From the NCBI RefSeq assembly GCF_013122565.1, contig NZ_CP053258.1: a stretch of DNA of 64,000 nucleotides; one strand, 5' to 3'. Source of the stretch: Escherichia coli. Lineage in GTDB: Bacteria; Pseudomonadota; Gammaproteobacteria; Enterobacterales; Enterobacteriaceae. A model generated the notes under the pieces. The model was not told where the DNA came from. It did not search any database and saw only the letters and a program-made list of their open reading frames with translations. The position numbers and the translations under genes are program-made. Below are positions 55,058 to 64,000 of the stretch, piece after piece; within the stretch, counting starts at the first letter, position 1; each line of letters opens with the position of its first letter.

Positions 55058-55148
55058 CACAAGAATTTCACTCTCATGGTTGTTGATGCAAATTGCAGCA
55101 AAGGGTAATCGATGGTTATTGATCAGAGGATGTGACATTCATAGCAAC

Positions 55149-55164
55149 AATGGTTGACCAATTT
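55149..55164. promoter_or_regulatory. Second candidate UxuR/ExuR-type palindrome
   Basis: aatggttgaccaattt contains TGGT-TG-ACCA. Confidence 0.3.
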
Positions 55165-61100: not shown

Positions 61101-64000
61101 CCAGCATCTGTTTGACGTTTTTACAGATAGCGGATTCTGGTACACCGGTTTTCACCCAGTTATCCATACAAAAAGCTGCCAGCTGGCGTTCGAGAATAGC
61201 CGTTGCATTGAGGAAGACGCCAGGAGCCTGCACCTGGCCCTGCATCATCTCCAGCGGTTCTTCAAAGAAAAACTGATCGTGCGGGTTCCCTTCTGCCACG
61301 GTAATGTTTAACGCGTTACCATCTTTACGACCGGCGCGACCAATACGTTGCAAGTAGTTGGCCTGAGCAGGTGGGACAGAACAGAGTAAAACGGTGGAAA
61401 GATCCCCAACGTCAATACCCATCTCCAGCGTCGGTGTTGCCGACAACAGGTTGATATTCCACGGTTGGTTGCCGCGGTAGAACGATTTTTCGGTGGCTTC
61501 GCGATCTTCACGGCTAAGCAGCCCCGTGTGTTCTGCGCCCTGCACGCGCGCGATGTCCATGTTCTCCCAACGCCAGGTCGCCATATTGTCGACTTCCTGG
61601 TAACGACCTTCACAACGTAAAGAGAGACAAGGCGCATTACGCCACTGCCAGCCTTGATCGGCCGGAGCCCGGACAACCTCACGGCAACATGAGCAATTAA
61701 GCTGAACGACGTCACGGCTCACCACCAGCGCCGAAGGCACCAGTCCCCAGGCTTCACGCCCTTTGGTGTCAAAATCTTTTACTACTCCGGCTATTTTCAA
61801 CGCCGTAAACAGGCGTCGTAACACCGTTTCCGCAACGCTACTGATAAACAGATTATTGCCGTTACTCAGCGTGCGATTGATCCAATGCTGATACCAACTG
61901 GGGTTAGACTTCGCGCCAATCAGGCGATGGAAACCATTAATTTTTTCAAACGACGCATAAGCCGGTTTACGCGTTTTCGGACCGATAGAAGGCATATAGC
62001 GCGAGGTACGCTCTTTTTGCGTCATCATAAAGGTCGTGCCATCACGGCGATAACTTTCGAACGCCGGATGCATAACGGCCCCGGCCTGGCGTTGATACCA
62101 GATAACCCCCAGCGCCAGGTGCGCTACCTGCTCGACGCTCACACCGGACATCTCATCACCCAGCTCTTCACAAAGCTGTTGATGCAGGGCGGTAATTGCC
62201 GGATTAAAGCGTTCTTTATCCACTCCGGCAACGGCATAACCGGTGGCTTCCAGCGTACGTCCGATACGCGCGCGCAGGGTAAATTCGCTGTACACCTCCC
62301 AGTCGAGGCGCAGGGAAACCAGCTCCGGCAGATCGGAGTTCTCCGCCAGTTTGCCTTCATTTTTCAGCGTCTGATAATCATTCAGCCACTGCATATTTGG
62401 TGCGATGAAGTTCGCTGCAAAATGAGCATCGTCCGGTGAACGTTCACGCGTTTGTTGGCAAACACGCGCCGCGAACGCATCCAGCGGTAATGTCTCTTTT
62501 TCGCCAAGAACACTGGCGATTTGCCCACGAATCATCAGCGGCCAGGTACGGGCAGTAAAGAAGCTGGCACGATGCGCGGCGTCTTGTACCGAGTCAGAAA
62601 ACGTAATCAGCTTTTTATGTTCGTTGAACTGGCTGCCATAAAGCTGGTGAATCATCACCGCCGACAAACTAGCAGCCCGTGACCCCAGGATCGAAATCCC
62701 CTGTTTGCTGTTGCAGTACGGGCATTCATTAGCAAACTCCAGCTCGTCCTTACGCTCTTTGAGCATATCCGGGATCAGTACCTGCAACAGTTCCGTATGA
62801 CCGCAATATCCACACTGGACGCTGGACTGTCGGTTCAGTTTCAGACAGGTAGGGCATAGTTTCTGGTGTGCGCCACTGACCGCTTTTTCGTTGTTATCCG
62901 GGAAAGCAAGGACGATGGAGCGCCCTTTTTCAAAGAACTGGCGATAAATGCCGTCGAGGTCTGTTTCCAGCTGAACGCTTTGCCCATGACGCAGGCTGGC
63001 CCAGCCGGTTGCATGGCAGTCACGGCAGTGGATAACCGGCAAATAGTGTTCGCGATCTTCCACCGCCACATCATCGGCAAACACCAGTCTCGGCGTTTTC
63101 GCCACGCTGGCGACCAGACGACGCATCTCACGAAGCCACAACTGGGAACGCAGTTGCACAAACGGCAACACCGGGCGCGCTTTCTTCGCCTGGAGACGTT
63201 TTTGCCGATCGTGGTCCGTTTCCGGTACTTCGAGACGTGCCTGCGCGATCAGCGCCAGAATGCTTTGCAGCACGCTTCGGGCATGGTCGGCGCTTTCTGC
63301 CAGCATGACCTGGAGATTTTCCAGACACTCTCGTTCAGAGAGGATACCGCCTTGCAGATCATGGAGTAAGACATGCATCACGCTGTGGCGGCGTAACAGT
63401 GACCCCAGCGCAATACGCTTTTCACGCCCGTCGTCGCTCTCCAGATCGTCCGGAAGCTGCAAGTCGCTGTCGGGGAACCACAAAGGAATTTGCCCGTTGA
63501 GATACGCCACCGGGGTAGCGTAACTCTGCGGGTCCAGGGCCGAAGCGACCTCCGGCCCCGGATACTGACTGTACGCAATGGCGTAATCCTGCAAGTACTC
63601 CGCTGCCGTGTAGCGATCTTCGCGAATAACGGCGTCATCGGTAAACGGCTGGTCAAAGATTGTTTTTGCGTAATCGAGCAGTTGCCCCAGTTCGTCGCCG
63701 ACGGTAGCTGATGTCCCGACGCAGGCGAATCGTTGGTTATCCACACCTATGTGATGCTTCAGACGTCGCACCAGACAGGCCAGATCCGACCCCTGCGCGC
63801 CATCAAACGTATGCAATTCATCCACGACCAGGTAACGCAATGAACCGGGCTGGTTGTAACGCCAGAGCGGCTGATCGCCAGGGCGCATCAGCAGGTAGTC
63901 GAGCATTTTGTAGTTGGTCAACAGGATGTCCGGCGGGCTTTCGCGCAGCGTGTGCTTGCAGGTAATGACCTTTTCTGCCGACATTTTTTTGCTGGGTTCG
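58180..64000 (-). CDS. Giant multidomain SF2 (DExH) helicase with Zn-ribbons, DUF1998-like Cys cluster and Vsr/DUF559-like nuclease motif; 5-prime end beyond the window
   Basis: Over 1934 aa. Frame is open to the window edge and helicase motifs I/Ia are missing, so the N-terminus lies outside. Motif II VVDELHTF, motif III GTSAT, motif V ATPTLEMGIDVGDL, motif VI QRIGRAGR; CxxC pairs (CPTC...CGYCGH; CSHCN...CPKCG); LVIYDTVPGGTGSL plus CSCNNDTHKDGCYRCVYAYRD (DUF1998-like); CRPDYVLYP...VAIFLDGFAFH...WVWTVTW (Vsr/DUF559-like). Confidence 0.85.
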   Translation of the reverse strand, partial: EPSKKMSAEKVITCKHTLRESPPDILLTNYKMLDYLLMRPGDQPLWRYNQPGSLRYLVVDELHTFDGAQGSDLACLVRRLKHHIGVDNQRFACVGTSATVGDELGQLLDYAKTIFDQPFTDDAVIREDRYTAAEYLQDYAIAYSQYPGPEVASALDPQSYATPVAYLNGQIPLWFPDSDLQLPDDLESDDGREKRIALGSLLRRHSVMHVLLHDLQGGILSERECLENLQVMLAESADHARSVLQSILALIAQARLEVPETDHDRQKRLQAKKARPVLPFVQLRSQLWLREMRRLVASVAKTPRLVFADDVAVEDREHYLPVIHCRDCHATGWASLRHGQSVQLETDLDGIYRQFFEKGRSIVLAFPDNNEKAVSGAHQKLCPTCLKLNRQSSVQCGYCGHTELLQVLIPDMLKERKDELEFANECPYCNSKQGISILGSRAASLSAVMIHQLYGSQFNEHKKLITFSDSVQDAAHRASFFTARTWPLMIRGQIASVLGEKETLPLDAFAARVCQQTRERSPDDAHFAANFIAPNMQWLNDYQTLKNEGKLAENSDLPELVSLRLDWEVYSEFTLRARIGRTLEATGYAVAGVDKERFNPAITALHQQLCEELGDEMSGVSVEQVAHLALGVIWYQRQAGAVMHPAFESYRRDGTTFMMTQKERTSRYMPSIGPKTRKPAYASFEKINGFHRLIGAKSNPSWYQHWINRTLSNGNNLFISSVAETVLRRLFTALKIAGVVKDFDTKGREAWGLVPSALVVSRDVVQLNCSCCREVVRAPADQGWQWRNAPCLSLRCEGRYQEVDNMATWRWENMDIARVQGAEHTGLLSREDREATEKSFYRGNQPWNINLLSATPTLEMGIDVGDLSTVLLCSVPPAQANYLQRIGRAGRKDGNALNITVAEGNPHDQFFFEEPLEMMQGQVQAPGVFLNATAILERQLAAFCMDNWVKTGVPESAICKNVKQMLDELEFGRKSGFPYNLLRYIEQHHAEIAAQFTAIFPDLAAETRQQLLSYLQGAPGQRSLVQRIEEALKLLVEDRKSLRSRIDKLKRSIDKLENAPRDQNFDSDMRELTSERQALMALVNQINNKQTLNFLTDEGLLPNYAFPEAGITLRSVLWRRKEGGEAREYQNTTFEYERPASTALAELAPLNNFYAGGHKVEIEQIDLKVSEPENWRICSHCNYSENIDQTGDQHKYCPKCGTPGWADAGQKTTLLKLRQVYARASARDSQISDESDSREPAFFQRQLLVSFEKEDVSAAYAIEEGEVPFGFEFLSKVTLRDINFGKMADDANELMIAGEAKKRTGFKVCLGCGMVQRPRDHEPRHDLSCKYRTEPEKAKFEDYLYLYRQLESEALRILLPVSSYSNDRVVEASLGAAIQLGLKHYFKGNVDHLKGVVYREPENEGESWRQYLVIYDTVPGGTGSLKELMRTPDNLLKLLELAYQAIVECSCNNDTHKDGCYRCVYAYRDRGRMKYVSRDQARLLLAKILQARDSIRVIDSIKNISLEAMMGSELEKRFISCLQENKNLIVSRSYAHQGAGWIINTRSEPMMSWHLKAQVDLGAKEAVGIPCRPDYVLYPLMQSDAIKPVAIFLDGFAFHKNSVAEDVQKRQAIRDSGNFWVWTVTWADLKEPGLKHVQDVLGLGHNPDMKQPKFYNLFHDTNFAALEASFRERNSFALLLDYLADPGGRTQLWQRMAAAHAWVWLDVKKSQDAGTKQKYAYEMQENAPAWRLAELLPDEPFVFGGLLDSCNSSQQFIELASVLPQQAIKPTTSVAQMRSWLRLHICFDDRYTQDDGYEAGLNGFWRLVNLLQFLPDMTFTSRKAVHLPQESVDTKVSATPEAVPETDESWAEIIEFGLLSAEEIALLQSHSLSAPTLGYELQNDEGEIIAEADLAWPSQKWALIIDNQEFIPLFTTRGWHVAFGPIDENTLQHLSGGDK

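What the first reader, a model, noticed from the sequence alone, without database searches (positions are those of the whole stretch)
55140..64000. Two-helicase cassette beside uxuA: candidate anti-phage defence system
Immediately beyond the uxuA promoter, where K-12 carries gntP, the window holds an AT-rich spacer followed by two translationally coupled minus-strand genes. The first is a giant (over 1934 aa, N-terminus outside the window) SF2 DExH helicase with Zn-ribbons, a DUF1998-like motif and a Vsr/DUF559-like nuclease motif. The second is a 704-aa UvrD-like SF1 helicase with an unassigned N-terminal domain. A helicase plus DUF1998 giant protein resembles DruE of Druantia (and DrmA/DrmB of DISARM), but I do not recognise a UvrD-like partner as a described Druantia component, and no methyltransferase or PLD gene is visible. 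This may be a distinct or under-described helicase-nuclease system. More components may lie upstream beyond position 64000.
Basis: partly seen in the sequence, partly recalled or inferred. Interest (0 to 1): 0.85.

Follow-up and report, generated by a model that had tools for sequence, protein, structure and literature searches.

The report
ARMADA II defence genes armC, armD
These two genes are the last half of a four-gene anti-phage system, ARMADA type II, that was named and shown to protect E. coli against phages in two 2025 preprints, so the finding is real but already known.

Summary
Window 56069-58183 (-) encodes a 704-aa UvrD-like helicase. Window 58180 to the edge at 64000 (-) encodes the C-terminal 1939 aa of a 2113-aa DEAD/DEAH helicase carrying an MZB/DUF1998 domain. 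The genes overlap by 4 nt (ATGA).

They are armC and armD of ARMADA type II (armABCD), described by Bell et al. 2025 (PMC12458937) and in EHEC EDL933 (bioRxiv 10.1101/2025.09.22.677730). The window proteins are 1930/1939 and 703/704 aa identical to O157:H7 Sakai ECs_5263 and ECs_5264. Every catalytic residue mutated by Bell et al. sits on its motif with the same numbering.

The locus is accessory, present in 525 of 5426 complete E. coli genomes. The only unusual feature is the junction: gntP, the fim operon and nanC are missing. That arrangement occurs in 9 of 5426 genomes.

Verdict: known system, low novelty.

The parts
58180..64000 (-). armC, incomplete at its 5' end. It encodes residues 175-2113 of a 2113-aa YprA-family DEAD/DEAH helicase-nuclease. 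The stop codon is at 58180-58182.
   Evidence: Open frame to the window edge. 1930/1939 aa identical to Sakai ECs_5263. PADLOC matches to DruE profiles are partial only.
63688..63999 (-). The part of the RecA1/DEAD domain that lies inside the window (residues 175-278). Walker B D234 is at 63820-63822.
   Evidence: Pfam DEAD covers residues 84-278 of the full-length relative. D234 sits in VVDELH. D234N abolished defence in Bell et al..
62713..63027 (-). Cluster of four CxxC motifs (residues 499-603), a predicted zinc-binding module inserted before RecA2.
   Evidence: CxxC at residues 499, 556, 570 and 600. Bell et al. describe a beta-barrel zinc-binding module at this position.
61324..61545 (-). 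RecA2 / Helicase_C core (residues 993-1066).
   Evidence: Pfam Helicase_C, E = 1.1e-10.
59608..59877 (-). MZB (DUF1998) zinc-binding domain (residues 1549-1638).
   Evidence: Pfam PF09369, E = 7.2e-13.
59101..59463 (-). Vsr/DUF559-like PD-(D/E)xK nuclease domain (about residues 1687-1807). Invariant residues: D1748 (59278-59280), D1768 (59218-59220), H1773 (59203-59205), R1784 and D1802.
58222..58458 (-). Small C-terminal domain of ArmC (about residues 2022-2100), similar to the C-terminus of ZorE.
   Evidence: BLASTP gives 40% identity over 57 aa to ZorE residues 279-335 of the same island type. PADLOC ZorE2 scores 33 bits. W at query position 423 is invariant.
58180..58183 (-). ATGA overlap between the armC stop and the armD start (translational coupling).
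   Evidence: Sequence read directly.
56069..58183 (-). armD, complete. [quoted passage not shown]
   Evidence: ORF. 703/704 aa identical to Sakai ECs_5264. PADLOC GajB scores 123 bits. Pfam UvrD-helicase and UvrD_C.
57839..58183 (-). RelE/ParE-superfamily fold (ArmD residues about 1-115). R62, R68 and H88 are invariant.
56102..57463 (-). UvrD-type helicase core (ArmD residues 241-694). Walker A K266 is at 57386-57388 and Walker B D454 at 56822-56824.
   Evidence: Pfam. Motif positions. Mutants K266A and D454N were made by Bell et al..
56026..56053 (-). G+C-rich hairpin (11-bp stem) starting 16 nt after the armD stop. It may mark the end of the operon, but no T run follows it.
   Evidence: RNA fold of 56000-56075 (-), -24.7 kcal/mol. 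Not listed by the terminator scan.
55823..56068 (.). Non-coding tail of the island downstream of armD, shared by most armCD-carrying E. coli genomes.
   Evidence: Most listed matches to 55000-64000 start at query base 824, which is window 55823. Local blastn against L003 agrees.
55220..55822 (.). 603-bp AT-rich filler between the chromosomal backbone and the island. It holds no ORF of note.
   Evidence: Present whole in only 9 of 5426 genomes. ORFs are 53 aa or shorter. GC is 39%.
54879..55219 (.). Conserved uxuA-gntP intergenic region (uxuA promoter side). It ends at the second base of the gntP start codon, and gntP itself is absent.
   Evidence: 5404 of 5426 genomes match query bases 1-320 of 54900-56100. 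In Nissle, gntP starts at the last two matched bases.

Best explanation
The two genes are armC and armD, the third and fourth genes of an ARMADA type II (armABCD) anti-phage operon. The operon is carried on a leuX-associated defence island that in related genomes also holds Druantia III and Zorya II.

Shown by others on near-identical proteins:
- The four genes protect E. coli against many dsDNA phages.
- Protection is direct: it does not kill the cell.
- Protection needs the ATPase motifs of ArmA, ArmC and ArmD and the NPPW motif of the methyltransferase ArmB.
- Phages with hypermodified DNA escape.

Inferred, about 60% likely in outline:
- ArmB, with ArmA, reads or writes an adenine-methylation mark that separates host DNA from phage DNA, as in DISARM class 1 and BREX.
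- ArmC loads on phage DNA, probably at single-stranded or end-containing replication intermediates as its relatives DruE and DrmAB do. It translocates with its SF2 motor under the OB-CON-DUF1998 canopy and cuts with its Vsr-like nuclease (D1748, D1768, H1773).
- ArmD, made in step with ArmC through the ATGA overlap, is an auxiliary SF1 motor. What its RelE-like N-terminal domain does (RNase, sensor or docking module) is unknown.
For: Identity:
- Window ArmC is 1930/1939 aa and ArmD 703/704 aa identical to O157:H7 Sakai ECs_5263 and ECs_5264. These lie in SpLE6 in the order ZorE-B-A, DruH, DruE, then four genes. That is the same layout as EDL933 z5894-z5902.
- The residues mutated in Bell et al. 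fall on the right motifs with identical numbering: ArmA K136 and D236, ArmB G605 and N971 (NPPW), ArmC K110 and D234, ArmD K266 and D454.

Architecture matches the published description:
- DEAD + Helicase_C + MZB and CxxC modules.
- Vsr-like nuclease fold.
- RelE-like fold fused to a GajB-like UvrD helicase.

Operon context:
- In genomes 99.1% identical over 9 kb, the upstream genes are a methyltransferase and an Snf2 helicase. The methyltransferase scores 929 bits on PADLOC REase_MTase_IIG and 193 bits on DrmMI. The Snf2 helicase scores 333 bits on DrmD.
- A distant relative keeps the order Snf2, MTase, ArmC-like, UvrD-like.

Accessory and mobile:
- 525 of 5426 complete genomes carry it.
- The 90%-identity cluster includes Klebsiella, Salmonella, Citrobacter and Enterobacter.
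- An integrase and tRNA-Leu lie at the island end.

Function: plaque and growth assays, deletions and point mutants in three E. coli strains.
Against: - armA and armB lie outside the window, so their presence in this particular genome is inferred from relatives, not seen.
- No published experiment yet tests the ArmC nuclease, the ArmD RelE-like domain, the methylation motif or the DNA substrate. The mechanistic steps are therefore analogy with DISARM, DruE and MrfA.
- The two studies differ on ArmD. Its deletion abolished protection in the plasmid system. In EDL933 the deletion mutant was less affected than the others.
- A catalytically dead NPPW mutant of ArmB lost defence. The EDL933 figure legend reports no growth difference for uninfected mutants (my excerpt was cut there). 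Neither result fits a simple restriction-modification logic.
- Both sources are preprints.
Confidence: 0.95

Rival explanations
1. A variant Druantia system, with the giant protein as DruE and the UvrD-like protein as a new accessory subunit.
For: The best PADLOC matches of the giant protein are DruE profiles: DruE3 347 bits and DruE1 324 bits on the full-length relative. It shares the DEAD-insert-Helicase_C-MZB layout.
Against: - The matches cover only pieces of the profiles. The true DruE of the same island scores 2180 bits end to end.
- ArmC and that DruE are 34% identical over 211 aa and 23% over 722 aa, with unrelated C-termini.
- No DruH-like gene adjoins this protein.
- The nuclease is Vsr-like, not PLD.
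- The published YprA-family tree places these proteins in a separate clade.
Confidence: 0.02
2. A class 1 DISARM system in which DrmA and DrmB are fused, and the PLD nuclease DrmC is replaced by a fused Vsr nuclease plus a UvrD helicase.
For: - The gene order Snf2 (DrmD-like, 333 bits), MTase (DrmMI-like, 193 bits), helicase + DUF1998 mirrors drmD-drmMI-drmA-drmB.
- The EHEC paper says DefenseFinder flagged the operon as DISARM I-related.
Against: - DrmA profiles match only about 85 residues of RecA2, at 46-50 bits.
- DrmA and DrmB are not separate genes here, and there is no PLD gene in the E. coli operons examined.
- ArmC is closer to DruE than to DrmA.
- This is mostly a question of naming. 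The literature resolved it by defining ARMADA as DISARM-related but distinct.
Confidence: 0.03
3. Housekeeping DNA-repair helicases: an MrfA/YprA-type repair helicase and a UvrD/Rep paralogue, unrelated to phage defence.
For: The MZB domain was first defined in the repair helicase MrfA. NCBIfam gives weak matches to PcrA, Rep and UvrD at 82-100 bits.
Against: - All NCBIfam scores are far below the curated cut-offs of roughly 900-1140 bits for PcrA, Rep and UvrD.
- Only 9.7% of complete E. coli genomes carry the genes.
- They lie on an integrase-bearing island beside Zorya and Druantia.
- Deletions sensitise cells to phage.
Confidence: 0.005
4. A decaying remnant: armC and armD survive here, but the operon is inactive in this strain because the same deletion that removed gntP-fim-nanC, or another event beyond position 64000, damaged it.
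For: - The junction beside armD is a rare, rearranged one, seen in 9 of 5426 genomes.
- One strain with the same filler has lost the whole island.
- armA, armB and the promoter are unseen.
Against: - Both reading frames in the window are intact over 2643 codons, with only 9 and 1 amino-acid differences from the Sakai proteins.
- The one same-junction genome inspected in full (MB06022) keeps all four genes plus Druantia III and Zorya II intact.
Confidence: 0.04

Closest known systems
ARMADA type II (armABCD) of E. coli NCTC 12900, EDL933 (z5899-z5902) and ATCC 8739; Bell et al. 2025 (PMC12458937) and bioRxiv 10.1101/2025.09.22.677730
   Same: - Over 99% protein identity to the O157:H7 orthologues.
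- Same lengths, same motif numbering and same domain set.
- Same armC-armD order and overlap.
- Same neighbours in related genomes.
   Different: - Chromosomal junction only. Here armD abuts the uxuA promoter region through a 603-bp filler, and gntP, fim and nanC are absent.
- armA and armB are not visible in the window.
- A few substitutions: 9 in ArmC and 1 in ArmD against Sakai.
DruE of Druantia type III (paralogue in the same island type)
   Same: - Giant YprA-family SF2 helicase with an insert between RecA1 and RecA2, zinc modules, an MZB/DUF1998 domain and a fused C-terminal nuclease.
- Related function. Purified DruE is a 3'-to-5' DNA helicase that binds ssDNA.
   Different: - 23-34% identity, confined to the motor and canopy.
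- The nuclease is Vsr-like rather than PLD.
- The partners are ArmA, ArmB and ArmD, not DruH.
DISARM class 1 (DrmD, DrmMI, DrmA, DrmB, DrmC)
   Same: An Snf2 helicase, a large adenine methyltransferase and a helicase with DUF1998, in the same order. The likely logic is methylation-linked recognition of foreign DNA.
   Different: - The DrmA and DrmB functions are fused into one protein.
- There is no PLD DrmC.
- There is an extra UvrD-like ArmD.
- Sequence similarity to DrmA is weak (about 46-50 bits).
GajB of Gabija
   Same: ArmD residues 240-700 match GajB profiles at 123 bits. It is a UvrD-type SF1 core with Walker A and B motifs.
   Different: There is no GajA (OLD/TOPRIM nuclease) partner. 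ArmD carries an N-terminal RelE-like domain and a helical linker (residues 1-240) that GajB profiles do not cover: the matches start at ArmD residue 240 and at profile positions 4-8.
RelE/YafQ/YoeB/ParE toxins of type II toxin-antitoxin systems
   Different: - Fused to a helicase rather than free-standing.
- No antitoxin gene.
- 6-18% sequence identity.
- RNase activity is untested.

Membership tests
ARMADA type II | ArmC: a YprA-family DEAD/DEAH helicase with an MZB/DUF1998 domain and several CxxC zinc modules. | tested here: met
   Pfam DEAD, Helicase_C and MZB. Nine CxxC motifs.
ARMADA type II | ArmC carries a C-terminal Vsr-type PD-(D/E)xK nuclease predicted to be active. | tested here: met
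ARMADA type II | ArmD: a GajB-like UvrD helicase fused at its N-terminus to a RelE-like domain. | tested here: met
ARMADA type II | Strict co-directional order armA (Snf2/BrxHII-like), armB (PglX-like MTase), armC, armD. | tested here: inconclusive
   The armC-armD order and ATGA overlap are met in the window. armA and armB lie beyond base 64000. They are present in that order in all three near-identical loci inspected and in a distant relative.
ARMADA type II | Orthology to the experimentally validated proteins. | tested here: met
   1930/1939 and 703/704 aa identical to O157:H7 Sakai ECs_5263 and ECs_5264. The eight mutated residues have identical numbering. Using Sakai as a stand-in for EDL933 and NCTC 12900 is an inference from shared serotype and island layout.
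ARMADA type II | BrxA-like and MarR-like inserts between RecA1 and RecA2, and a coiled-coil HTH before the OB-CON-DUF1998 module. | not tested
A long insert of about 715 aa between the DEAD and Helicase_C domains is evident.
ARMADA type II | Protects cells against phage. | not testable with these tools
   Taken from the literature on orthologues over 99% identical.
Druantia type III | A DruE helicase that matches the DruE profile end to end and carries PLD-like nuclease domains. | tested here: not met
   347 bits in pieces, against 2180 bits for the island's true DruE. No PLD match in Pfam. The nuclease fold is Vsr-like.
Druantia type III | An adjacent druH gene. | tested here: not met
   The neighbours of this gene are armB and armD. 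In related genomes druH sits beside the other giant helicase.
DISARM class 1 | Separate drmA (helicase) and drmB (DUF1998) genes plus drmC (PLD nuclease). | tested here: not met
   One fused 2113-aa protein. No PLD gene in the E. coli operons. DrmA profiles score about 46-50 bits over about 85 residues.
DISARM class 1 | drmD (Snf2) and drmMI (adenine MTase) upstream. | tested here: inconclusive
   DrmD-like at 333 bits and DrmMI-like at 193 bits are present in relatives, but outside the window.
Gabija | A GajA OLD-family ATPase/TOPRIM nuclease encoded next to GajB. | tested here: not met
   No such gene on either side of armD.
Core DNA-repair helicases (UvrD, Rep, MrfA) | Score above the curated equivalog cut-off, and presence in essentially all genomes of the species. 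| tested here: not met
   NCBIfam scores of 82-100 bits against cut-offs of 911-1144. Present in 525 of 5426 genomes.

The most novel reading that the evidence does not exclude
Two parts of ARMADA II were not mutated or assayed in either of the two ARMADA papers I read, and both are conserved.

The first is the RelE-like domain of ArmD, with invariant R62, R68 and H88. The second is the small C-terminal domain of ArmC, which is 40% identical to the C-terminus of ZorE from the neighbouring Zorya II system.

The most novel reading my evidence leaves open has two parts. ArmD may be an RNA-cutting or ribosome/transcript-sensing arm coupled to a DNA helicase. The shared ArmC/ZorE tail may be a common docking or DNA-end module that physically links the co-inherited systems.
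Probability: 0.1. Interest if true: 0.55.

Novelty: already known. Interest (0 to 1): 0.2.

Why it matters
For the scan, it shows that sequence reading alone picked out a real defence system and placed it correctly between Druantia and DISARM. However, the system was published as ARMADA type II in 2025, so nothing new is discovered here.

What remains of value:
- An independent structural confirmation of two domain assignments: the RelE-like domain in ArmD and the Vsr-like nuclease in ArmC.
- A list of invariant residues that are obvious mutagenesis targets, since neither nuclease-type domain was mutated in the two papers I read.
- A rare chromosomal arrangement in which the island abuts uxuA and the strain lacks gntP and the type 1 fimbrial operon at this site.

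Tried and rejected
- Sequence-only searches of solved structures found nothing useful. The ArmD N-terminus gave one chance rubredoxin hit at E = 1.9, and the ArmC C-terminus gave no hit.
- Pfam does not see the RelE-like or the Vsr-like domain in the window proteins. Profile alignments plus structure prediction were needed.
- The word-indexed homologue search with the ArmC C-terminus returned only 5 proteins. The exhaustive representative search returned 947 and was used instead.
- The terminator scan lists nothing after armD. The hairpin found by folding has no T run, so I call it only a possible terminator.
- The Rfam gathering scan of the whole window found no RNA family.
- The spacer holds no ORF above 53 aa. 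Its 603-bp filler has only a 140-nt, 72% match to an unrelated gene fragment, so I treat it as debris, not as a gene.
- Druantia, DISARM, Gabija and housekeeping repair were considered and rejected for the reasons given in the membership table.
- Searches failed for technical reasons (wrong file name; range one base too long).

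
Full report
**1. What is in the sequence**

Two co-directional minus-strand ORFs fill window 56069-64000. The downstream ORF (56069-58183) encodes 704 aa. The upstream frame ends at 58180 and stays open to the last full codon of the window.

The first recognisable motif of the upstream frame is helicase motif II, VVDELH. The N-terminus, including Walker A, is therefore outside the window. 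Full-length relatives are 2113 aa, so 174 residues are missing.

The stop of the upstream gene and the start of the downstream gene overlap as ATGA, with GGAGGTG 7 nt upstream.

GC content is 50-53% in the genes and 39-42% in the 1.2 kb between uxuA and the downstream gene.

**2. Domains**

*The giant protein.* Pfam finds these domains, in full-length numbering:
- DEAD at residues 84-278.
- Helicase_C at residues 993-1066.
- MZB (DUF1998) at about residues 1549-1638.

Nine CxxC motifs are present, four of them clustered at residues 499-603.

I took these steps:
- An exhaustive search with the last 466 residues found 947 cluster representatives, many about 2100 aa long.
- An alignment of 37 of them has invariant D1748, D1768, H1773, R1784 and D1802.
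- An AlphaFold model from that alignment has mean pLDDT 87.

The nuclease assignment therefore holds.

*The 704-aa protein.* It has UvrD-helicase and UvrD_C domains from residue 241 and matches GajB profiles at 123 bits. Residues 1-240 have no Pfam match. For that region:
- An alignment of 54 homologues gave a model with pLDDT 92.
- R62, R68 and H88 are invariant.
- Some homologues are labelled RelE by JGI, and 13 of 54 give weak ParE_like matches.

**3. Context beyond the window**

The 9 kb from 55000 to 64000 matches 525 of 5426 complete E. coli genomes over at least 80% of its length. The best matches are 99.1% identical.

In strain MB06022 the operon continues upstream with:
- a 1637-aa SAM-dependent DNA methyltransferase;
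- a 952-aa Snf2-type helicase;
- a 2107-aa helicase and a 1119-aa STY4851/ECs_5259-family protein;
- zorA2-zorB2-zorE on the opposite strand;
- remnants of mobile elements, an integrase and tRNA-Leu.

PADLOC profiles identify these proteins:

| Protein | Best PADLOC matches |
|---|---|
| 2107 aa | DruE3, 2180 bits, end to end |
| 1119 aa | DruH3, 2542 bits |
| 952 aa | DrmD-like, 333 bits |
| 1637 aa (methyltransferase) | type IIG-like, 929 bits; DrmMI-like, 193 bits |
| 2113 aa (the window's giant protein) | DruE profiles, at most 347 bits, in pieces |

The giant protein and the true DruE share 34% identity over 211 aa and 23% over 722 aa. Their C-termini are unrelated.

**4. Identification**

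A literature search found two 2025 preprints that describe exactly this four-gene unit.

*Bell et al. (PMC12458937).* They name it ARMADA type II, with these components:
- ArmA, a BrxHII/RapA-like Snf2 helicase.
- ArmB, a PglX-like methyltransferase.
- ArmC, a YprA-like helicase with a C-terminal Vsr-type nuclease.

They report a strict gene order. The NCTC 12900 operon, cloned with its own promoters, protected against 13 of 80 phages. Deleting any of the four genes abolished protection. Protection was also lost in these point mutants:
- ArmA K136A and D236N.
- ArmC K110A and D234N.
- ArmD K266A.
- ArmB N971A.

ArmD D454N and ArmB G605A gave partial loss. Infected cells stayed intact and metabolically normal, so the defence is direct and not abortive.

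*The EHEC paper (10.1101/2025.09.22.677730).* It maps the operon to z5899-z5902 on O-island 172 of EDL933. ARMADA II was the dominant defence of that strain. It synergised with Druantia III, and hypermodified Tevenvirinae phages escaped it. The armD deletion mutant was less impaired than the other arm mutants.

*Direct test of identity.* O157:H7 Sakai carries the same island (SpLE6) with ECs_5261-5264 in the arm positions. The window proteins are 1930/1939 aa (ArmC) and 703/704 aa (ArmD) identical to ECs_5263 and ECs_5264. All eight published mutation sites fall on the expected motif residue with the same number.

*Conservation of gene order.* A distant relative from a metagenome assembly keeps the order Snf2, MTase, ArmC-like, UvrD-like. 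Another has an extra 1662-aa gene between the methyltransferase and the ArmC-like gene.

**5. Mechanism**

*Shown, in the literature, on orthologues over 99% identical:*
- Anti-phage protection.
- A requirement for all the ATPase motifs and for the NPPW methyltransferase motif.
- A non-abortive outcome.
- Escape by phages with hypermodified DNA.

*Inferred:*
- DNA is the target.
- ArmC is the effector that translocates on DNA and cuts with the Vsr-like domain.
- ArmB, with ArmA, provides methylation-linked discrimination, as in DISARM class 1 and BREX.
- ArmD assists as a second motor.

*Support for the inference from relatives:* purified DruE binds ssDNA but not ssRNA and is a 3'-to-5' DNA helicase, and DrmAB recognises DNA with a 5' overhang.

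*Against a plain restriction-modification logic:* the NPPW mutant loses defence, and uninfected deletion mutants are reported to grow normally (my excerpt was cut at that point).

Neither of the two ARMADA papers I read tests the ArmC nuclease or the ArmD RelE-like domain.

**6. The junction**

Homology with ordinary E. coli runs from uxuA through the whole uxuA-gntP intergenic region. It stops at window 55219, the second base of the gntP start codon.

A 603-bp AT-rich filler follows (55220-55822). It occurs whole in only 9 of 5426 genomes and holds no ORF above 53 aa.

From 55823 onward the sequence is the island tail shared by most other carriers.

In the usual arrangement, gntP, fimH-fimB, nanC, nanM and nanS lie between uxuA and armD. 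Window-type genomes have lost them at this site. One strain keeps the first 270 bp of the filler, followed by IS1, a cut integrase and leuX. It has therefore lost the whole island.

**7. Verdict**

Its claim of novelty is also out of date.

The system is ARMADA type II, already named and validated, so novelty is 'already known' and interest is low. Small residual points are the untested nuclease-type domains, the ArmC/ZorE shared tail and the rare gntP-fim-less junction.

Noticed in passing
window 54879-55822: The uxuA-gntP intergenic region is intact up to the second base of the gntP start codon (55219). A 603-bp filler then leads straight into the defence island. gntP, the whole fim operon, nanC, nanM and nanS, which normally lie between uxuA and armD, are absent at this site. 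Only 9 of 5426 complete E. coli genomes share this junction.
   Followed up: partly
L007 6001-8076 (E. coli EC23HZZ201): This strain keeps uxuA plus the first 270 bp of the same filler, then IS1, a truncated integrase and tRNA-Leu. This looks like loss of the whole Zorya-Druantia-ARMADA island from a window-type ancestor by an IS1-linked deletion.
   Followed up: partly
window about 58222-58458 (ArmC residues about 2022-2100): The last small domain of ArmC is 40% identical over 57 aa to the C-terminus (residues 279-335) of ZorE, the effector of the Zorya II system in the same island type. So two co-inherited systems share a domain. Its role is unknown.
   Followed up: partly
L002 10454-15367 against L005 21769-26703 (armB, outside the window): ArmB is 90% identical between MB06022 and Sakai. 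Nearly all differences fall in one block, residues about 1100-1440, as expected of a swapped target-recognition region. The window's own allele is unseen.
   Followed up: no
L008 5001-9989: In a distant ARMADA II-like locus (CP126972.1), a 1662-aa gene with SACS and NOV_C Pfam matches sits between the methyltransferase and the ArmC-like gene. An integrase, a primase and an AlpA-type regulator lie just downstream. This departs from the 'strict' four-gene order.
   Followed up: no
window 56026-56053 (-): An 11-bp G+C-rich hairpin lies 16 nt after the armD stop, with no T run after it. It may mark the operon end, but it does not fit the intrinsic-terminator consensus.
   Followed up: partly
window 14500-26400: This variable 'immigration control' region holds a type I restriction-modification system and a GmrSD-type restriction enzyme. 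It is only 73% identical to, or absent from, the genome that best matches the ARMADA end of the window.
   Followed up: no
window 34500-45100: This segment carries a SdiA-regulated protein gene (yjiK), a pentapeptide-repeat EspX6-like effector gene, the inverse autotransporter gene iatD, yjiJ and kptA. About 633 of 5426 genomes share it at 95-99% identity; most others match at only 80-90%.
   Followed up: no
window 10172-10992: The hpa (4-hydroxyphenylacetate) operon lies between tsr and btsT in strain MB06022. It is absent from the window, which has under 1 kb at that place.
   Followed up: no
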